Of a DNA stretch of 64,000 bases, positions 23,707-30,980 are shown in pieces. Position 1 is the first letter of the stretch; each line of letters opens with the position of its first letter. Made by a program: the position numbers and the translations under genes. The notes below the pieces were generated by a model that was given only the letters and a program-made list of their open reading frames with translations, was not told where the DNA came from and searched no databases. This DNA comes from Thiobacillus sp. (GTDB lineage: Bacteria > Pseudomonadota > Gammaproteobacteria > Burkholderiales > Thiobacillaceae): assembly GCA_035428045.1 (NCBI GenBank), contig DAOMCT010000001.1:162899-226898 (forward strand), read 5' to 3'.

Positions 23707-24540
23707 ATGAAAACGATCCTGATTTCTGCTTCGGTCGCAATCACCCTGGTGCTGGCCGGTTGCAGCAGCGGCCCAACGGTCGGCGACAAAAAAAACCCGG
23801 ACCCAGCCAAGAGCGCCAAGAAAGGCGGCTATTACCTCGACGACGGCCCCGATGCCTCGCCACCGCCCGACCTCGCCGCCATTCCGGACGCAGTGCCGCG
23901 TGCCGAGCCGTTGCACCGTTTTGCCAACCGCCCCTACGAAGTGATGGGCAGTCGTTATGTGCCTCAGAGCGAGCGCCGCGCGCACAGCGAAGAAGGCGTT
24001 GCATCGTGGTATGGCAAGCGGTTTCACGGCAGAAAAACCGCCTCGGGCGAACGCTACGACATGTATGCGATGACTGCGGCACATCCGACCTTGCCGATCC
24101 CGAGTTACGTGCGGGTCACCTCGCTCGCCAATGGCAAAAGCGTGGTGGTGCGGATCAACGACCGCGGGCCGTTTCACAGCAAGCGCATTATCGATCTGTC
24201 GTATGTCGCCGCGAGCAAGCTCGGCTACATCGGCAAGGGCAGCACCCGGGTGCGGGTGGAAAGTCTCGATTCGGCGGCCTACGACACGACGGGCGAAGCC
24301 ATCGAACAAGGCCTTTATTTGCAGGTAGGGGCTTTTTCCAGCCCCGGCAACGCCCAGCAATTGCTGGCGCGCCTGACGCGTGAGCTCGAGCTCGACGACC
24401 AGCAGACGCGCGTCGTCCTGACCGGCAAGCTGCACCGTGTGCAGCTCGGTCCGTATCCCAGCGATGACGCCGCCCAAGCGGAACGCGGCCGGGTGCAGGA
24501 CCGCCTTGCCTTGAATGCCATTCTGGTCCGGCGCGATTGA
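23707..24540 (+). CDS. rlpA: Septal ring lytic transglycosylase RlpA
   Basis: Lipobox LAGC, DPBB motif ASWYG...TAAHPTLP...RINDRGPF, C-terminal SPOR domain. Confidence 0.93.
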   Translation: MKTILISASVAITLVLAGCSSGPTVGDKKNPDPAKSAKKGGYYLDDGPDASPPPDLAAIPDAVPRAEPLHRFANRPYEVMGSRYVPQSERRAHSEEGVASWYGKRFHGRKTASGERYDMYAMTAAHPTLPIPSYVRVTSLANGKSVVVRINDRGPFHSKRIIDLSYVAASKLGYIGKGSTRVRVESLDSAAYDTTGEAIEQGLYLQVGAFSSPGNAQQLLARLTRELELDDQQTRVVLTGKLHRVQLGPYPSDDAAQAERGRVQDRLALNAILVRRD

Positions 24541-24547
24541 GCCGGCC

Positions 24548-25669
24548 ATGTTGAGCGCACGTTTTTACCTTGTCTTGATCGGGCTTTTTTTTGCGCTTAC
24601 GGCATGGGCTGCGCCCACCGGCATGACTGCGCGGGCCTGGGTGTCGATCGATGCGGTAACCGGCCGCGAGCTGGCGGCGCATCAAGCCGATTTGCCCCTG
24701 GCTCCGGCTTCCCTGACCCAGTTGATGACGGCTTATGTACTGCTGGGCGACATCAGGAAAAACAAGCTGAGCCTCGGCGAAATGCTCAGCGTGCCGCCCG
24801 CGGCCGAACAGGTGGACGGCGCGCGCGTCTTCCTCAAGGCGGGCGAGCAGATCAGCGTCGACACCCTGCTGCAGGCGATGCTGGTGCACTCTGCCAGCGA
24901 CGCCACGTTGACGCTGGTGACGGCAGTCGACGGCAGCGAAGCGGCGTTTGTGGAGCGCATGAATAGTGAAGCAAAACGCCTTGGCATGAGCAAGACCCGC
25001 TTCATGAATGCCACCGGCCTGACCGAGCCGGGGCACGAGTCGAGTGCACGTGACCTGGCGATACTGGGGCGGGCGTTGGGTCGCGACTTTGCCAATCGCC
25101 AGACGTTTTTCACGCAGAAGGAACTGGTTTTCAAGGGCGTCACCTATTACAACGCCAATCGCCTGCTGTGGCGCGACCCTGCGGTGAATGGCCTGAAGGT
25201 CGGCCGCACCGCGCAGGCGGGATATTGCAGCGTGGCCTCGGCGCAACGCGGAGACCAGCAACGCATCGCGGTGGTGCTGGGCGCGCGCAGCGACGCGCTG
25301 CGTACCCAGGACGCGCTGAAGCTTCTGAACGATGGCTTCGAGAACTTCGACAGTGTGCTGCTGTATCGCGCCCGGCAGCCGGTCAAGGTGGTCAAGTTGT
25401 ACCGCGGCATCAGCGATTCGGTGGCGCTGGGATTTGCGCAGGACTTGCACGTGTTGATCCCGCACGGCAGCGCTGCGCGGATCAAGGCGCAGGTCATCAC
25501 CCAGCAGCCGGTACTGGCGCCGCTGCGCAAGGGGCAGCGCATGGGCAGCCTGCGCCTGACACTCGATGGCAAGCCGCTGGGAGAATTTGCGCTGGTGGCG
25601 CTGCAGGGCGTGAGCGTGTCCGGCATTTTTGGTCGGGCCTGGGATTCGATCCGGCTGATGGTGGAGTGA
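24548..25669 (+). CDS. dacA: D-Ala-D-Ala carboxypeptidase (PBP5/DacA) homologue with degenerate active-site motifs
   Basis: Peptidase S11 plus PBP5 C-terminal architecture, but motifs read SLTQ, SAS and KVG instead of SxxK, SxN and KTG. Confidence 0.85.
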   Translation: MLSARFYLVLIGLFFALTAWAAPTGMTARAWVSIDAVTGRELAAHQADLPLAPASLTQLMTAYVLLGDIRKNKLSLGEMLSVPPAAEQVDGARVFLKAGEQISVDTLLQAMLVHSASDATLTLVTAVDGSEAAFVERMNSEAKRLGMSKTRFMNATGLTEPGHESSARDLAILGRALGRDFANRQTFFTQKELVFKGVTYYNANRLLWRDPAVNGLKVGRTAQAGYCSVASAQRGDQQRIAVVLGARSDALRTQDALKLLNDGFENFDSVLLYRARQPVKVVKLYRGISDSVALGFAQDLHVLIPHGSAARIKAQVITQQPVLAPLRKGQRMGSLRLTLDGKPLGEFALVALQGVSVSGIFGRAWDSIRLMVE

Positions 25670-26517
25670 TGAACGTCTATCTGGATGGGCAATTCCTGCC
25701 CCTGGCCGACGCGAAAGTGTCACCACTCGACCGCGGCTTTGTGTTCGGCGATGGCGTGTACGAACTGGTTCCGGTGTATTCGCGCAAGCCGTTCCGTCTG
25801 GAGGAACACCTGCGCCGCCTGCAGGGCAGCCTCGACGGCATCCGTCTGGCCAACCCGCATGGTGTGGCGCGATGGCGCGAGCTGGTCGAGCAGTTGATAG
25901 CGCTGCAGGATTTCAACGACCAGTCGGTTTACCTGCAGATCACGCGCGGCGTGGCGCCGCGCGATCAGGCTTTTCCGCTTGGCGTGGCGCCGACCGTGTT
26001 CATGTTCTCCCAGCCGCTGGTGAGCGCAACGCAGGCGCAGAAAGAGGCCGGCGTGTGTGCGATCACGGCGCGGGACATCCGTTGGGGGCGCTGCGATATC
26101 AAGGCCGTCTCGCTGCTCGCCAATGTGCTGGCACGCCAGCAGGCGGTGGAAGCCGGGTGTGCCGAAACCGTGATGCTGCGCGACGGCTTTTTGAGCGAAG
26201 GCGCGGCGAGCAATATTTTTGCGGTGAAAAACGGCGTGTTGCTGGCACCGCAGCCCTCCCCGCTGATTCTGACCGGCATCACCTACGACGTGGTGCTCGA
26301 ACTCGCTGCCGCGCATGGCATTCCGTCCGAACTGCGGGCGATCAGCGAAGCCGAACTGCGCGGCGTGGACGAATTGTGGATGACGTCGTCTACCAAGGAA
26401 ATCATGCCGATCGTGCGTCTCGATGGCGCGCCGGTCGGCGACGGCAAACAAGGGCCGATGGCGCGGCAGATGGATGCGCTGTACCAGCAATTCAAACAAC
26501 AGGTGATGCGCGCATGA
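25669..26517 (+). CDS. D-amino acid aminotransferase (PLP class IV)
   Basis: DRGFVFGDGVYE, RCDIKAVSLL, EGAASN, LTGIT, SSTKEIMP. Confidence 0.9.
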   Translation: MNVYLDGQFLPLADAKVSPLDRGFVFGDGVYELVPVYSRKPFRLEEHLRRLQGSLDGIRLANPHGVARWRELVEQLIALQDFNDQSVYLQITRGVAPRDQAFPLGVAPTVFMFSQPLVSATQAQKEAGVCAITARDIRWGRCDIKAVSLLANVLARQQAVEAGCAETVMLRDGFLSEGAASNIFAVKNGVLLAPQPSPLILTGITYDVVLELAAAHGIPSELRAISEAELRGVDELWMTSSTKEIMPIVRLDGAPVGDGKQGPMARQMDALYQQFKQQVMRA

Positions 26518-26795
26518 GCGAGGAAACCCTGCTCGAGTTTCCGACCGATTTTCCGGTCAAGATCATGGGTGAGCGGCGCGTGTCTCCCAGCGGAGGCGAA
26601 GAATTCGCGCAGACCATGATCGAACTGGTGCAGCGCCATGCGCCCGATTTCGATCCTGATACCGCCGAAATTCGCGTATCGAGCAAAGGCCATTACCTGA
26701 GCGTGACCTGTGTCGTTCGTGCCACGTCCAAAGCTCAGCTTGATTCGCTGTATCTCGAGATCACCGCGCATCCGTGGGTGAAGATGGCGCTGTGA
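26514..26795 (+). CDS. ybeD: YbeD/DUF493 family protein
   Basis: [13 protein letters not shown]...[10 protein letters not shown]...HPWVKMAL, upstream of lipB. Confidence 0.9.
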
Positions 26796-26839: not shown

Positions 26840-27436
26840 GTGCGCAGCCTGGGGCGGGTCGAGTACGAACCGACCTGGCGGGCGATGCAGGAATTCACGG
26901 CGCGGCGTACGCCTGACACGGCGGACGAGATATGGCTGCTGGAGCATCCGCCGGTTTACACCCAGGGCCAGGCGGGCAAGCCCGAGCACCTGATCGCCGC
27001 CACCGCCATCCCTGTCGTGCCGATTGATCGCGGTGGGCAGATCACCTATCACGGCCCGGGACAGATCGTCGCCTATGTGCTGGTCGATCTGCGGCGGCGT
27101 GGTTATGGCATCCGTGAACTGGTCACGCGGATGGAGCAGGCCGTGATCGATGTGCTGACCGGAGTGGCAGTGGCCGCCACCCGGCAGGCAGGCGCGCCGG
27201 GGGTGTACGTGGCGGGCGCAAAAATTGCCGCGCTGGGACTGCGCGTCAAGCAGGGTTGCACCTATCACGGCCTGGCACTGAATGTGGACATGGACTTGCA
27301 GCCGTTTTCCGCAATCAATCCCTGCGGGTATGCCGGCATGCAGGTCACGCAATGCCGCGACCTTGGCGTCAGCGAGTCGCTGCCGGCTTTGGCGCAAGCT
27401 GTCGAACTCGCCTTGCGCCGAACGATCTATTCTTGA
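26840..27436 (+). CDS. lipB: Lipoyl(octanoyl) transferase
   Basis: [42 protein letters not shown]. Start GTG 26840 (RBS ggaggtga) or GTG 26792. Confidence 0.95.
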
Positions 27437-27453
27437 CTGATTTAGTCGGTTAT
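27429..27453 (+). promoter_or_regulatory. IscR type-1-like operator overlapping a sigma-70 -35 element (TTGACT)
   Basis: ATTCTTGACTGATTTAGTCGGTTAT matches 23 of 25 positions of the E. coli IscR type-1 consensus ATASYYGACTRwwwYAGTCRRSTAT (consensus recalled). Candidate -10 TATTCT at 27457-27462. Confidence 0.7.
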
Positions 27454-27485
27454 TAGTATTCTTGCGGCTTCTATTGGAGTTATTT

Positions 27486-28601
27486 ATGACCACCGACACC
27501 CTGCCGTCCGATCCCAAGCTGCTGATGCGTTCGATCATCCAGCGCATCGCCACCGGTCCCGACCTGTCGAAAGACATCAGCCGCACCGAGGCGCACCTGG
27601 GTACCAAGGCCATCATCGACAACATGATCGATCCGGTTCAGGTCGGGATTTATTTCATTGCCTTGCGGATGAAGCGCGAGACCATGGACGAAAACCGCGG
27701 CGTGCTCGATGCCGTGCTGGATACTACGCTCCGCGTGACGGCCGAGGTGGACGAGGTGGTCGATATCGGTGATCCGTACGACGGCTATACCCGCTGCCTG
27801 CCTGCTGCACCGTTTCTCGGTCCGTTACTGGCAGAGCTGGGCGTGCATGTGGTGTCGCATGGTCTCGACAAGGTGGGGCCCAAGTTCGGCGTGACGGTGC
27901 GCCATGTGCTGGAAGCCGCGGGGGTGCCGGTGAACCTGACGCCGGTCGAAGCCGCCGCGCGTCTGAGCGACCCGGCCCTCGGCTGGAGTTATGTCGACCA
28001 GGCGCAATCCAACCCCGGCATGCACAAGCTGATTCCGCTGCGCACGCAGATGATCAAGCGTCAGGTGCTGACCACGGTGGAAGTGTTGTCGAAGCCGATC
28101 GCCGGCAAGAAGCTGACCCATTTCATCACCGGCTACGTGCACAAGCCCTATCCGCCAGTGTATGCCGATCTTGCCCGGGTGGCCGGATTCGACACTGCCT
28201 GCATCGTGCGCGGCGTCGAGGGCGGGGTGATCCCGTCGCTGCGCCAGACCGGCAAATATTTCCACTATCACGACCGTGCCGAGGAAATCGAGGCCAGCAT
28301 CGATCCGGTTGCGCTCGGCATCGACCAGCCAGTACGCGCTGTGCCGCTGCCCGGCAGTGTGGCGGGCGAAGCGGGCGAGGACGAAATTGTCGCTGCCATC
28401 GACATCAAGGCCACGGCACGCGCTGCCGCCGAGGCCGGGATTCTGGCGCTCAAGGGCGACAAGGGCGCGACCTACGACTCGCTGGTGCTGGCCGGCTCGA
28501 TCGTCCTGCTCCACGTCGGCAAAGCCGCCAGCGTGGCCGATGCGGCGCTGCAGATTCGCGCAGTGCTGGATTCCGGCCGCGCCGTGGCACGGGTGAAGTG
28601 A
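27486..28601 (+). CDS. TrpD/YbiB-like glycosyl transferase family 3 protein (non-canonical)
   Basis: N-terminal helical domain IIQRIATG...GIYFIALRMKRET resembles YbiB/TrpD; GTGGD is absent (IGDPYDGYTR instead); VRGVEGG. Confidence 0.75.
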   Translation: MTTDTLPSDPKLLMRSIIQRIATGPDLSKDISRTEAHLGTKAIIDNMIDPVQVGIYFIALRMKRETMDENRGVLDAVLDTTLRVTAEVDEVVDIGDPYDGYTRCLPAAPFLGPLLAELGVHVVSHGLDKVGPKFGVTVRHVLEAAGVPVNLTPVEAAARLSDPALGWSYVDQAQSNPGMHKLIPLRTQMIKRQVLTTVEVLSKPIAGKKLTHFITGYVHKPYPPVYADLARVAGFDTACIVRGVEGGVIPSLRQTGKYFHYHDRAEEIEASIDPVALGIDQPVRAVPLPGSVAGEAGEDEIVAAIDIKATARAAAEAGILALKGDKGATYDSLVLAGSIVLLHVGKAASVADAALQIRAVLDSGRAVARVK

Positions 28602-28909
28602 TGGCTGAATATGTCGCTATTGCCGCCGCCGATGAGCTCAAGCCGGCGCAGATGAAGCGCGTTGTCGTCGACGGCAAAAAGTTGCTGCTGTGCAACTCGA
28701 ACGGCACGCATTATGTCGTCGATGAAATGTGCACTCACGAGGATTACTCGCTATATCTGGGCTGCATCAAGGACGGCAAGATCAAGTGTTCGCTGCATGG
28801 CAGCTACTTCGATCTGACCACCGGCCAGCCTACCTGCGATCCGGCGGACGAACCGATCAAGACCTATCCGGTGAAGCTCGAAGCCGGTCAGGTGTGGGTA
28901 CAGGTCTGA
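28601..28909 (+). CDS. Rieske-type [2Fe-2S] ferredoxin
   Basis: CTHED...CSLHGSYFDLTTG; GTGA/ATG overlap with the upstream gene. Confidence 0.92.
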   Translation: MAEYVAIAAADELKPAQMKRVVVDGKKLLLCNSNGTHYVVDEMCTHEDYSLYLGCIKDGKIKCSLHGSYFDLTTGQPTCDPADEPIKTYPVKLEAGQVWVQV

Positions 28910-29464
28910 TTACTTCTTGAGCAGGTCGCGGATCGCCTGCTCGATCTGCGGGTGATCGAATTCGCGACCGCCGATGGCACTGGCGACAATGCGCCCCCGC
29001 TGGTCGATCAGATAGGTGGTCGGTAGCCCCGACACTTTCCAGACTTGCAAGCTGCGGCTCTGGCTGTCGAGCAGGATGGGAAAGTTCAGCGTGGCGTCGA
29101 GTTGGCTGGCGAAACTGTTGATGGTGTCTGCGTCCTCGCCGACATTGATCGCTAATACGCTAAAGGCTTCGTTTTTGAGCGCTTGCGACAAGCGTTCCAT
29201 TGACGGCATTTCGCGTCGGCAGGGCGGACACCAGGTGGCCCAGAAGTTGACAAGCACCACGCGTCCCTTCAGTTGCGCCAGGTCGTGCGGTTTGCCGTCG
29301 AGGTCTTTTAACTTCAATGCCGGGGCGGGCTGGGGCGCTTGACGGGTCAAGCTGTGTGACAAGGCCGGCGGGGCGGCTGAACAAGGGTTTGCCGCGGCCA
29401 TGCCCAGCGAAAAAACCATGACCAGCGCCTGCAAGTGCATTCGATTACGACTCTTCATCTGCAC
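28910..29464 (-). CDS. TlpA-family thiol:disulfide oxidoreductase
   Basis: VLVNFWATWCPPCRREMP, GLPTTYLID; N-terminal signal or anchor. Confidence 0.9.
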   Translation of the reverse strand: MQMKSRNRMHLQALVMVFSLGMAAANPCSAAPPALSHSLTRQAPQPAPALKLKDLDGKPHDLAQLKGRVVLVNFWATWCPPCRREMPSMERLSQALKNEAFSVLAINVGEDADTINSFASQLDATLNFPILLDSQSRSLQVWKVSGLPTTYLIDQRGRIVASAIGGREFDHPQIEQAIRDLLKK

Positions 29465-30005
29465 ACCTCACTTGTTTAAGGCTGTCTGAATGGTGCTTTC
29501 CGTCAGTGCGCCAGGCAAAGTGGAGATCGAAACTTGCGCCGCGCGCCACACGGTAGGCGGTCATCCCCTGGTTCCAGTCGCCCGGTGAAAAAGTCTGCGT
29601 GGCGGGGAACTGTGCCCAGGCGAAGGCGATGCGAGCAGGCTCGGCAACGCCGTGTTGTTTCCAGATGCGTTCCCATGCGGCCTTGCTGCGAATGGGGCGC
29701 GGAGCCTGGCCTGCAACGACATAGCGCCAGTCGGCCAGACGGTGCTGGATCGGCGTGTTGCCGAGGTTGCGCACCACAGTCATGAAGACGCATTCGGCGG
29801 CGTAGCGTTCTGACATCGCAGCAGAAAACCCGCGTGCCTGGTAAAAGGCACGCGCCTGATCCGGGCTGATCTGGGTCAGCTGCAACTGGATGCCGCCGGT
29901 TTCGATTTGCCAGGTGGCCAGTCCGGTTTCCGCGTCCACACTAAAGTCGGCAGCGCTCGCTGCCACACTCCACACAGCCAAAAGGGTCAGGGCGGCGAAT
30001 CGCAT
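29445..30005 (-). CDS. Exported hypothetical protein with two Cys
   Basis: Signal peptide [18 protein letters not shown]; overlaps the tlpA start. Confidence 0.75.
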
Positions 30006-30053: not shown

Positions 30054-30980
30054 ATGGCAGACCCCATTCAACACAAGGGTGCGGCAAAAACCGCGCGCAT
30101 CCCGATCAAGATCGTGCCGCAGGAGCGCATGCGTCTGCCGCCGTGGATTCGCGCCAAGGCGCCGAGCCTGCCAAATGTCGCACGGCTGAAGGGCATTCTG
30201 CGCGAGGCGAAGCTGCACACCGTGTGCGAAGAAGCCTCCTGTCCCAATCTGGGCGAATGCTTTGGCCACGGCACTGCGACCTTCATGATCCTGGGCGACC
30301 TGTGTACCCGGCGCTGCCCGTTCTGCGATGTCGGCCACGGCACGCCGCTGCCACCGGACGTCGACGAGCCGCGCCACCTGGGCGAAACCATTGCGATGAT
30401 GGCGCTGAAATATGTGGTGATCACCAGCGTCGATCGCGACGATCTGCGCGACGGCGGAGCGCAGCATTTCATCGACTGCATCCGCGCCGTGCGCGAGTTG
30501 TCGCCGGCGACGCGGATCGAAATCCTGACGCCGGACTTTCGCGGTCGTCACGACCGTGCGCTCGATATTTTTGACGCCGCGCCACCCGACGTGATGAACC
30601 ACAATCTTGAAACCGTGCCGCGCCTGTACAAGGCGGCGCGCCCGGGCGCCGATTACGCGCATTCGCTCAAATTATTGAAAGACTTCAAGGCGCGCCATCC
30701 CTCTGTGCCGACCAAGTCTGGTCTGATGCTGGGACTGGGTGAGGAAGACGACGAGATCCTGCAGGTGATGCGCGATCTGCGCGCCCATGAGGTCGACATG
30801 CTGACGCTGGGGCAATACCTGCAGCCCTCGCAACACCATTTGCCAGTATTGCGCTTCGTGACGCCGGAACGCTTTGCCCAGTTCGAGCAGGAAGCGCTGA
30901 CGATGGGTTTCAAGCACGCCGCGTGCGGCCCAATGGTGCGATCGAGTTACCACGCCGACCAGCAGGCGGCGGGGGTGTAA
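30054..30980 (+). CDS. lipA: Lipoyl synthase
   Basis: [24 protein letters not shown] motifs. Confidence 0.97.

What the first reader, a model, noticed from the sequence alone, without database searches (positions are those of the whole stretch)
27429..28909. IscR-box-controlled operon: non-canonical TrpD/YbiB-like protein plus Rieske ferredoxin
Seen: ATTCTTGACTGATTTAGTCGGTTAT, overlapping the lipB stop and a TTGACT -35, precedes a two-gene unit (GTGATG overlap) inserted between lipB and lipA. The first protein has the anthranilate-PRTase fold but lacks the GTGGD PRPP loop; the second is an intact Rieske ferredoxin with no oxygenase partner. Established: type-1 sites are bound by [2Fe-2S]-IscR to repress Fe-S biogenesis genes; LipA consumes an Fe-S cluster each turnover; YbiB-type TrpD2 proteins lack PRTase activity and bind nucleic acid. 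Inference: an undescribed Fe-S-stress-responsive module (cluster supply, repair, or redox-linked nucleotide or RNA chemistry), possibly serving lipoyl synthase.
Basis: partly seen in the sequence, partly recalled or inferred. Interest (0 to 1): 0.78.

Follow-up and report, generated by a model that had tools for sequence, protein, structure and literature searches.

The report
IscR-controlled TrpD2-like/Rieske gene pair
A Thiobacillus genome carries a two-gene operon (a TrpD-fold protein that cannot be the tryptophan enzyme, plus a small Rieske iron-sulfur protein) behind a convincing binding site for the iron-sulfur sensor IscR; the pair travels together in sulfur-oxidising bacteria, has no known function, and probably sits beside the lipoate genes by accident.

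Summary
The 25-bp box at 27429-27453 matches the IscR type-1 consensus at 23 of 25 positions. A matrix built only from iscR promoters of other Thiobacillus genomes ranks it 4th of 3.5 million positions in this genome. It is kept at -57/-58 in most of about 70 Thiobacillus loci, and also in a second genus where lipB and lipA are not neighbours. The first protein has the TrpD fold (pLDDT 95; TM 0.73-0.76) but DPYDG replaces GTGGD, and it falls below every curated family cut-off. The Rieske partner keeps all four cluster ligands.

IscR control is well supported in silico, but only in Thiobacillaceae. The link to LipA is not supported: the pair keeps together, in either gene order, in quite different contexts elsewhere (a nif cluster, behind cysG, beside Alvin_2107-family and DsrC-like genes). 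In a 401-genome sample of the order, all 13 genomes with the coupled pair have dsrA, against about 20% overall.

The best reading is an uncharacterised Rieske-coupled TrpD2-clade module of reverse-Dsr sulfur oxidisers, placed under IscR in this lineage. This scan met the same cassette before on other DNA, with similar verdicts. No paper on it was found.

The parts
27429..27453 (+). IscR type-1-like operator (palindromic 25-mer), overlapping the lipB stop codon and the -35 hexamer
   Evidence: 23/25 to the consensus. It scores 30.7 bits, rank 4 of 3.5 M genome positions, with a matrix built from iscR promoters of other Thiobacillus genomes. It is conserved at -57/-58 in most Thiobacillus loci.
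27433..27462 (+). Sigma-70-like promoter: TTGACT, 18 nt, TATTCT. Same layout as site B of the genus's iscR promoter (box starts 4 nt before -35 TTGACT).
   Evidence: consensus scan. One search gives the iscR promoters ATAG-TTGACT-N17-TATAGT. One search shows a fully conserved block from about -62 to -27 in 58 distinct upstream sequences.
27486..28601 (+). TrpD-fold (glycosyltransferase family 3) protein of a distinct TrpD2-like clade, 371 aa. DPYDGxxR replaces GTGGD.
   Evidence: AlphaFold2 pLDDT 95. Foldseek TM 0.73-0.76 to TrpD structures.
28601..28909 (+). Rieske [2Fe-2S] ferredoxin, 102 aa, translationally coupled to the gene upstream (TGATG)
   Evidence: Ligands C44, H46, C63 and H66 are invariant in 34 partners.
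26840..27436 (+). lipB (octanoyltransferase), upstream neighbour; not part of the module
   Evidence: LplA-B_cat, 1.1e-35.
28910..29464 (-). TlpA/ResA-like periplasmic thiol-disulfide oxidoreductase, convergent with the Rieske gene; present in some Thiobacillus genomes only
29445..30005 (-). 186-aa protein with a signal-peptide-like N-terminus and no family hit; travels with the tlpA-like gene
30054..30980 (+). lipA (lipoyl synthase), downstream neighbour; not part of the module
   Evidence: Radical_SAM and LIAS_N.

Best explanation
The region 27429-28909 is a self-contained operon. Its promoter is occluded by an IscR type-1 operator that covers the -35 hexamer and the spacer. By analogy with type-1 sites in E. 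coli, [2Fe-2S]-IscR should repress it, and it should be released together with the isc genes when Fe-S clusters run short (inferred, not shown). It encodes two proteins that act together. One is a TrpD-fold protein of a separate TrpD2-like clade. It cannot bind Mg-PRPP as TrpD does and so is not anthranilate phosphoribosyltransferase. The other is a small Rieske [2Fe-2S] ferredoxin, which most likely gives electrons to, takes them from, or redox-gates its partner. That step is inferred from fixed gene pairing only. The pair belongs to the accessory gene set of bacteria that oxidise sulfur through reverse Dsr. Its place between lipB and lipA, and its IscR control, are features of Thiobacillaceae and not of the module. 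My estimates for the separate steps: real IscR-type operator about 0.85; the two proteins work together about 0.9; not a TrpD enzyme about 0.85; tied to the reverse-Dsr sulfur-oxidiser way of life about 0.6; Rieske as direct redox partner or gate of a ligand- or polyanion-binding TrpD2-like protein about 0.35.
For: Operator. It scores 23/25 to the consensus and is unique in the window. It is among the three best sites in the genome. With a matrix built from iscR promoters of 22 other genomes it ranks 4th, at 30.7 bits; about ten sites score 23 bits or more and all others fall below 20. The other top sites fit an Fe-S and sulfur-relay regulon. They are iscR itself (two sites), cysE, a CGFS glutaredoxin, a site ahead of an FKBP-type gene that is followed by a YgiQ-like radical-SAM gene, and a TusE-like gene. 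The TusE-like gene's box scores at least 18 bits in 27 of 30 Thiobacillus genomes. The genome has one IscR orthologue, with Cx5Cx5Cx2H, next to cysE and iscS. The other two Rrf2 genes lie beside hmp and beside cox-assembly genes. The box is kept at -57/-58 across Thiobacillus, with changes mostly at degenerate positions. It is also kept at -42/-43 (25-31 bits) in a second genus, at 68% protein identity and with no lipB or lipA nearby. Pairing. A Rieske gene is adjacent in most loci that have room on both sides. The order is TrpD2-Rieske above about 60% identity and Rieske-TrpD2 in a 50-59% clade. Not TrpD. GTGGD, KHGN and the DE metal site are all replaced. TIGR01245 scores 61 bits against a cut-off of 199. 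A separate TrpD-like match lies on contig C4 (28% identity, E 1.6e-9). Sulfur link. All 13 genomes with the coupled pair in a 401-genome sample of the order have DsrA, against about 80 of 401 overall; Fisher p = 3e-10, uncorrected for kinship, with positives in eight families of the order (f1, f14, f109, f115, f124, f125, f133, f142). Recurrent neighbours are an Alvin_2107-family 'globule sulfur oxidation protein' (12 loci), cysG (16 loci, 11 of them directly upstream), DsrC-family proteins, 2OG-Fe(II) oxygenases, and a 196-aa protein whose homologue in this genome lies beside dsrAB.
Against: Outside Thiobacillaceae the pair has no IscR box; Gallionellaceae have an extended -10 promoter instead. 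Fe-S control may therefore say little about function. Only about one in five dsrA genomes carry the pair. Some Thiobacillus genomes that are 99% complete lack it but keep dsrA, so it is dispensable for Dsr. One subclade (about 51-56% identity, next to Alvin_2107) has no adjacent Rieske gene. The co-occurrence counts are inflated by kinship. No fusion or structure of the complex was obtained.
Confidence: 0.6

Rival explanations
1. The module serves lipoyl synthase. Under Fe-S shortage it supplies, repairs or reduces the auxiliary cluster that LipA consumes.
For: In Thiobacillus the pair lies between lipB and lipA. In several genomes, including the closest relative (97% identity), lipA follows the Rieske gene directly, about 37-100 nt away on the same strand. 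There it could be co-transcribed from the IscR-controlled promoter (L034, L040, L042, L087).
Against: The lipB/lipA context is confined to one genus. Orthologues at 44-82% identity sit in unrelated contexts with no lipoate genes. In this window two opposite-strand genes separate the pair from lipA. The pair is rare (2 of 400 sampled genomes of the phylum), whereas lipA is a widespread housekeeping gene (background knowledge, not counted here).
Confidence: 0.07
2. It is a functional YbiB: a non-enzymatic binder of nucleic acid or polyanions (possibly linked to ObgE), here gated by the redox or cluster state of the Rieske partner.
For: YbiB is the closest solved relative by sequence (E 1e-9). 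The PRPP loop reads P-Y-D-G-x-x-R, like YbiB's S-Y-N-G-A-R-K. Basic residues R61, R103, K133, R186, K191 and R192 are invariant or nearly so. R103 and K133 lie next to the positions of YbiB Arg92 and Arg123, which bind the ObgE tail (PMC10123104). One lineage encodes the pair directly after rplU-rpmA-obg-proB.
Against: The NCBIfam YbiB model scores 82 bits against a cut-off of 185. The family is mildly acidic (median pI 6.25; this protein 6.07, net charge -5), unlike a protein described as having strongly positive grooves. There is no dinG or LexA context. The obg neighbourhood occurs in one lineage only.
Confidence: 0.18
3. It is a true enzyme with a new chemistry: a TrpD or nucleoside-phosphorylase-fold catalyst acting on a different ribosyl or aromatic substrate, with the Rieske protein as its dedicated electron carrier, perhaps in making a cofactor such as a siroheme derivative.
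For: Conservation is very high (80% identity between Thiobacillus and Gallionellaceae). There is a family-specific set of invariant residues (G24, R61, E65, E69, G100, P132, G135, R186, K191, R192, H219, E245, G246), as expected for an active site. cysG lies directly upstream in 11 loci, and 2OG-Fe(II) oxygenases are neighbours in 11 or more.
Against: All residues that hold Mg-PRPP in TrpD are replaced (PMC9835598). No TrpD-fold enzyme is known to need an electron donor. No substrate can be named from the data.
Confidence: 0.2
4. The box is not an IscR site. It is conserved because it holds the -35 hexamer and the lipB stop codon, or it is bound by another Rrf2 regulator.
For: The left half of the box contains TTGACT and the lipB stop codon, which are conserved for other reasons. 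Two further Rrf2 genes exist in the genome.
Against: The right half-site, which holds no promoter element, is conserved as well. The box persists where lipB is not adjacent and in a second genus. It scores like the iscR promoter sites with a matrix built without it. The other Rrf2 genes sit beside hmp (NsrR-like) and beside cox-assembly genes.
Confidence: 0.1

Closest known systems
YbiB / TrpD2 family (E. coli YbiB; PDB 4MUO, 8BFR, 7Y3P; NCBIfam NF006005)
   Same: Two-domain TrpD fold. The GTGGD PRPP loop is lost and replaced by an x-Y-x-G-x-x-R/K loop. The T/V-E-G motif stands in place of the TrpD metal-binding DE. It is the best sequence match among solved structures (E 1e-9).
   Different: About 25% identity over the first 250 residues only, and below the family cut-off (82 against 185 bits). 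The protein is mildly acidic rather than basic. It has its own invariant signature: DPYDGxxR, GPKxGxT, GYVHKxYP, RGVEGG. It is paired with a Rieske protein instead of dinG under LexA (PMC10123104).
Anthranilate phosphoribosyltransferase TrpD (for example PDB 4HKM, 1ZVW, 1O17; TIGR01245)
   Same: Same fold: Foldseek TM 0.73-0.76, E down to 3e-19. The superfamily Arg of the 'R..L..RT' segment (R186, K191, R192) is kept.
   Different: GTGGD, KHGN and the DE metal site are all replaced. The family model scores 61 against a cut-off of 199 bits. There is no trp context, and a separate TrpD-like match lies on contig C4 (28% identity, E 1.6e-9).
NCBIfam PRK07394 (NF005635), a 'hypothetical protein' family of TrpD-like proteins
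   Same: Best-scoring curated model (136 bits over residues 15-256).
   Different: Far below the cut-off of 287 bits. The C-terminal third does not align. That family is uncharacterised too, so it gives no function.
IscR type-1 operators of the iscR, erpA (yadR) and nfuA (yhgI) promoters of E. coli
   Same: 25-bp imperfect palindrome, 23/25 to ATASYYGACTRWWWYAGTCRRSTAT. It overlaps the -35 hexamer and the spacer, the same layout as site B of the Thiobacillus iscR promoter.
   Different: The controlled genes are not known Fe-S biogenesis factors. Binding and direction of control are untested here. The E. coli details rest on my own background knowledge.
Small Rieske ferredoxins of three-component oxygenases (HcaC, AndAb) and NirD
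   Same: About 100 aa, with CxH...CxxH ligands. Best NCBIfam hits are HcaC (78 bits) and AndAb (69 bits); Rieske_2/NirD is also hit.
   Different: Below all equivalog cut-offs. There is no oxygenase or reductase gene in the operon. The conserved partner is a TrpD-fold protein.

Membership tests
Anthranilate phosphoribosyltransferase (TrpD) | GTGGD loop that binds the 5-phosphate of PRPP | tested here: not met
   Reads IGDPYDG, and DPYDGxxR across 32 family members. The motif is defined in PMC9835598.
Anthranilate phosphoribosyltransferase (TrpD) | KHGN segment and the Asp-Glu pair that binds Mg2+ | tested here: not met
   SHGLD stands at the KHGN position and RGVEGGV at the position of the DE pair, by alignment to YbiB and, by inspection, to TrpD.
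Anthranilate phosphoribosyltransferase (TrpD) | Score above the curated cut-off of TIGR01245 | tested here: not met
   61 bits against 199.05.
Anthranilate phosphoribosyltransferase (TrpD) | Two-domain TrpD fold | tested here: met
   AlphaFold2 pLDDT 95, pTM 0.92. Foldseek TM 0.73-0.76 to many TrpD structures.
TrpD2 / YbiB | TrpD fold without the PRPP-binding motif | tested here: met
TrpD2 / YbiB | Score above the curated cut-off of NF006005 | tested here: not met
   82.3 bits against 185.
TrpD2 / YbiB | Strongly positive surface grooves that bind nucleic acid; conserved Arg92 and Arg123 | tested here: inconclusive
   R103 and K133 lie one or two positions from the YbiB arginines in the alignment. 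The whole protein has pI 6.07 and the family median is 6.25. No surface or binding test was possible.
TrpD2 / YbiB | LexA-controlled operon with dinG | tested here: not met
   No helicase gene lies next to the pair in any locus read.
PRK07394 (NF005635) | Score above the curated cut-off | tested here: not met
   136.3 bits against 287.
Rieske [2Fe-2S] protein | CxH and CxxH ligand boxes; Pfam PF00355 above the cut-off | tested here: met
   64.9 bits against 20.3. C44, H46, C63 and H66 are invariant in 34 partners.
IscR type-1 operator | Match to the 25-bp type-1 consensus beyond chance | tested here: met
   23/25, with 0 matches in 100 shuffles of the window. It is among the three best sites in the genome.
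IscR type-1 operator | Resembles the organism's own iscR promoter sites | tested here: met
   A matrix from iscR promoters of other Thiobacillus genomes gives 30.7 bits, rank 4 of 3.5 M positions.
IscR type-1 operator | Conserved upstream of orthologues | tested here: met
   Met within Thiobacillaceae: Thiobacillus loci plus a second genus. Not found in Gallionellaceae or gammaproteobacterial orthologues.
IscR type-1 operator | Bound by [2Fe-2S]-IscR; repression relieved on cluster loss | not testable with these tools
   Needs a gel-shift assay and expression data. The genome's IscR has the Cx5Cx5Cx2H ligand pattern.

The most novel reading that the evidence does not exclude
The TrpD-fold protein and its Rieske partner form a new redox-dependent component of cytoplasmic sulfur oxidation. 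For example, they could handle a DsrC-bound or persulfide intermediate, or a siroheme-type cofactor of DsrAB. The Rieske centre would feed electrons to a fold so far known only for phosphoribosyl transfer, phosphorolysis and nucleic-acid binding. Thiobacillus would tie its synthesis to Fe-S status through IscR.
Probability: 0.2. Interest if true: 0.75.

Novelty: new variant of a known kind. Interest (0 to 1): 0.55.

Why it matters
The TrpD superfamily has three described branches: TrpD, class II nucleoside phosphorylases, and DNA-binding TrpD2. This clade is a further branch with its own invariant residues and an almost obligatory Rieske partner, which implies a redox link never reported for this fold. 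It is annotated everywhere as 'anthranilate phosphoribosyltransferase', and that is almost certainly wrong. It is widespread in environmental sulfur and iron oxidisers (more than 4000 clusters at 90% identity). It is a candidate for one of the remaining unknown accessory functions of reverse-Dsr sulfur oxidation. The Thiobacillus IscR regulon sketched here (iscR, cysE, grx4, a tusE-like gene and this pair) offers a simple handle for expression tests.

Tried and rejected
- Papers. Schneider 2015 (PMC4528117) and Weissgerber 2013 and 2014 are not held. Searches for Alvin_2107 to Alvin_2109 gave only passing mentions. The supplement of PMC11267869 is cut before Alvin_21xx. I could therefore not check whether the Allochromatium homologue responds to sulfur compounds.
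- Rosetta-stone fusion. The long representatives (420-445 aa, 524 aa, 1072 aa) carry no Rieske domain. The only in-frame TrpD2-Rieske reading in my loci is L106, a MAG in which the end of TrpD2 is missing, probably a deletion or an assembly fault.
- NifA or sigma-54 control in the nif-embedded copy: no convincing site, only a conserved extended -10.
- Foreign origin of the pair: its GC and GC3 match the neighbouring genes.
- A complex model of the two proteins, and mapping of invariant residues on the model: the tool takes single chains only and no coordinates reach the script box.
Full report
**What is in the window.** Co-oriented genes run along the plus strand: a dacC-like gene (24515-25669), an aminotransferase, ybeD (26514-26795) and lipB (26840-27436). 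After a 49-nt AT-rich gap (35% GC against 63% for the window) come a 371-aa gene (27486-28601) and a 102-aa gene (28601-28909). The stop of the first (TGA) and the start of the second (ATG) share one base. Two minus-strand genes follow: a TlpA/ResA-like thioredoxin (28910-29464) and a 186-aa protein without family (29445-30005). Then comes lipA (30054-30980). So the pair does not directly abut lipA here. The genome is a Thiobacillus; its best protein match (97%) is to 'Hydrogenophilales bacterium 12-61-10'.

**The operator.**
- The 25-mer at 27429-27453 is the only match in the window to a slightly relaxed form of the type-1 consensus, and 100 shuffles gave none.
- Against the strict consensus it scores 23/25. 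Only three sites in the 3.5-Mb genome score that high, and one of them is the iscR promoter.
- To avoid circularity I took the iscR upstream regions of 22 other Thiobacillus genomes. Each has two tandem sites. I built a matrix from those sites alone and scanned this genome.
- The site scores 30.7 bits and ranks 4th of 3.5 million positions. Ahead of it are the two iscR sites and a site between a YyaL-like thioredoxin gene and an ankyrin gene. About ten sites score 23 bits or more; all the rest fall below 20.
- The other high sites fit an Fe-S and sulfur-relay regulon. They precede cysE, a CGFS glutaredoxin, an FKBP-type gene followed by a YgiQ-like radical-SAM gene (named from their N-termini, not family-checked), folE2 and a TusE-like gene. 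The TusE-like gene's box scores at least 18 bits in 27 of 30 genomes of the genus.
- The genome's IscR has the Cx5Cx5Cx2H ligand pattern and sits in cysE-iscR-iscS order. The two other Rrf2 genes lie beside hmp and beside cox-assembly genes.

**Promoter layout.** The -35 hexamer TTGACT lies inside the left half of the box, and TATTCT follows after 18 nt. Site B of the genus's iscR promoter is built the same way: ATAG-TTGACT-N17-TATAGT. If the -10 is placed correctly, the operator covers roughly -40 to -16. That fits repression by occlusion. The direction of control is inferred from E. coli type-1 sites, from my own knowledge; it is not shown here.

**Conservation of the box.**
- In 17 of 18 genus loci from the genome search, and in most of about 70 named Thiobacillus loci, a box scoring 20-24 of 25 lies at -57/-58 from the ATG. 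Substitutions fall mostly at degenerate positions.
- In 58 distinct upstream sequences a block from about -62 to -27 is almost invariant, while the preceding lipB codons vary.
- The box stays with the pair in loci where 1-2.6 kb is inserted after lipB.
- It also stays in a second genus of the family (68% protein identity, no lipB or lipA within 1.5 kb), where it scores 25-31 bits at -42/-43.
- Outside the family it is missing. Gallionellaceae have a conserved extended -10 (TGGTAGAAT), and gammaproteobacterial loci score below 10 bits.

**The proteins.** The first protein hits both Pfam halves of glycosyltransferase family 3. It falls below every curated NCBIfam cut-off:

| NCBIfam model | Score (bits) | Cut-off (bits) |
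|---|---|---|
| PRK07394 | 136 | 287 |
| YbiB (NF006005) | 82 | 185 |
| TrpD (TIGR01245) | 61 | 199 |

- Among solved structures YbiB is the best sequence match (E 1e-9). The alignment puts P-Y-D-G-Y-T-R opposite YbiB's S-Y-N-G-A-R-K, at the place where TrpD has GTGGD.
- An alignment of 32 representatives at 30-58% identity shows a signature of the family's own: DPYDGxxR, GPKxGxT, GYVHKxYP and RGVEGG. Fifteen columns are invariant.
- The AlphaFold2 model is confident (pLDDT 95) and superposes on TrpD structures with TM 0.73-0.76.
- The family is mildly acidic, with a median pI of 6.25.
- The second protein is a Rieske ferredoxin whose four ligands are invariant in 34 partners.
- A separate TrpD-like match lies on contig C4 (28% identity, E 1.6e-9); I take it to be the genome's trpD but did not check it further.
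- Two Rieske-type oxygenase genes exist on other contigs, unlinked to the pair.

**The pair elsewhere.** The family is rare among sampled genomes: 2 of 400 in the phylum and 14 strong hits among 401 in the order. It is common in metagenomes, with more than 4000 clusters. A Rieske gene is adjacent in most loci that have room on both sides. The order is TrpD2-Rieske above about 60% identity and Rieske-TrpD2 in a 50-59% clade. Pairing that survives a swap of gene order is strong evidence that the two proteins work together. The surroundings differ widely:
- inside a nif cluster, between nifHDK-fdx-DUF4202 and draGT;
- beside ribonucleotide reductase genes;
- after rplU-rpmA-obg-proB;
- directly behind cysG in 11 loci;
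- in marine gammaproteobacterial loci, among an Alvin_2107-family 'globule sulfur oxidation protein' (12 loci), a 196-aa protein (16), 2OG-Fe(II) oxygenases (11), Sel1 proteins (11), DsrC-family proteins (6), a Cas6-like PF09559 protein (6), DUF6866 (6) and a MoxR plus VWA pair (6).

In this genome, homologues of the Cas6-like, DsrC-like and 196-aa proteins lie right beside dsrAB on contig C3.

**Link to Dsr.** In the 401-genome sample of the order, 16 of the 17 genomes with any hit have DsrA, and so do all 13 with a Rieske-coupled pair. Overall about 80 of 401 have it. Fisher p = 3e-10 without correction for kinship, and the positives fall in eight families. The single exception (G709) also lacks the adjacent Rieske gene. 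The pair is not universal among dsrA genomes. Some complete Thiobacillus genomes lack it, so it is an accessory.

**Reading.** The IscR-type operator and the two-gene operon are real, and the first protein is not TrpD. The lipoate link is best explained as an accident of position in one genus. In several Thiobacillus genomes that lack the tlpA insert, lipA follows the Rieske gene closely and could be read through from this promoter; that may matter for lipA regulation there. What the pair does remains unknown. I commit to this: a Rieske-coupled, non-PRPP TrpD2-clade module that belongs to the accessory set of reverse-Dsr sulfur oxidisers and is switched on in Thiobacillaceae together with the isc genes. 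The report sections give the rivals with odds: a YbiB-like polyanion binder, a new enzyme, LipA support, and a box that is not an IscR site.

**Earlier notes of this scan.** The same cassette was noted and followed up in another Thiobacillus genome (e1-5206788). The pair was also followed up beside Dsr genes in another genome (e1-1474083). I read both only after reaching the same points here, and they agree. A note of a natural 480-aa fusion (e1-2980574) could not be confirmed with my loci.

Noticed in passing
G000:C1:61066-61090 (same contig, outside the window): An IscR-type box lies about 72 nt upstream of a TusE-like gene of the DsrC family with a single C-terminal Cys (...PKPTGCV). It is present in all 30 sampled Thiobacillus genomes, 27 of them at 18 bits or more. 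This suggests that the tRNA-thiolation sulfur relay belongs to the IscR regulon here.
   Followed up: yes
G000:C1:2353-2377, C3:120647-120671, C14:63569-63593, C2:155735-155759, C12:90731-90755: Further IscR-type sites at 23-33 bits. They lie between a YyaL-like thioredoxin-domain gene and an ankyrin-repeat gene, upstream of a CGFS monothiol glutaredoxin, upstream of an FKBP gene followed by a YgiQ-type radical-SAM gene, upstream of folE2, and upstream of cysE. Gene names are read from N-termini and motifs, not checked against family models.
   Followed up: partly
window 28910-30005: The convergent tlpA-like gene plus the 186-aa secreted protein form a variable insert. They are absent in several Thiobacillus genomes, including the closest relative, where lipA follows the Rieske gene by about 37 nt (L034, L040, L042, L087).
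   Followed up: partly
L114:4438-18724 (Gallionellaceae metagenome contig): The pair sits inside a nif cluster: nifH-D-K, a Fer2 ferredoxin, DUF4202, a 47-aa ORF, then the pair, then draG-draT on the other strand, then nifENX and nifQ. It has its own extended -10 promoter and no NifA or sigma-54 site.
   Followed up: partly
G000:C3:105283-112378: Beside dsrAB lie a DsrC-like gene, a Cas6-like PF09559 gene with no CRISPR context seen, another DsrC-like gene and a 196-aa protein without family. The same set neighbours the TrpD2-like/Rieske pair in marine gammaproteobacterial contigs.
   Followed up: partly
L153-L155, L158, L164, L175, L235-L237, L239, L241: In the clade with Rieske-TrpD2 gene order, siroheme synthase cysG lies directly upstream on the same strand. 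This recalls nirD-cysG linkage in enterobacterial nir operons.
   Followed up: partly
L106:4001-5362 (T. denitrificans MAG UBA4768): TrpD2 (residues 1-325 only) and the Rieske gene read through in one frame as a 454-aa product. This is probably a deletion or an assembly fault rather than a natural fusion.
   Followed up: partly
L120/L121:3565-8131: In one gammaproteobacterial lineage the pair follows rplU-rpmA-obg-proB directly. That is notable because E. coli YbiB binds the ObgE tail, but it occurs in one lineage only.
   Followed up: no
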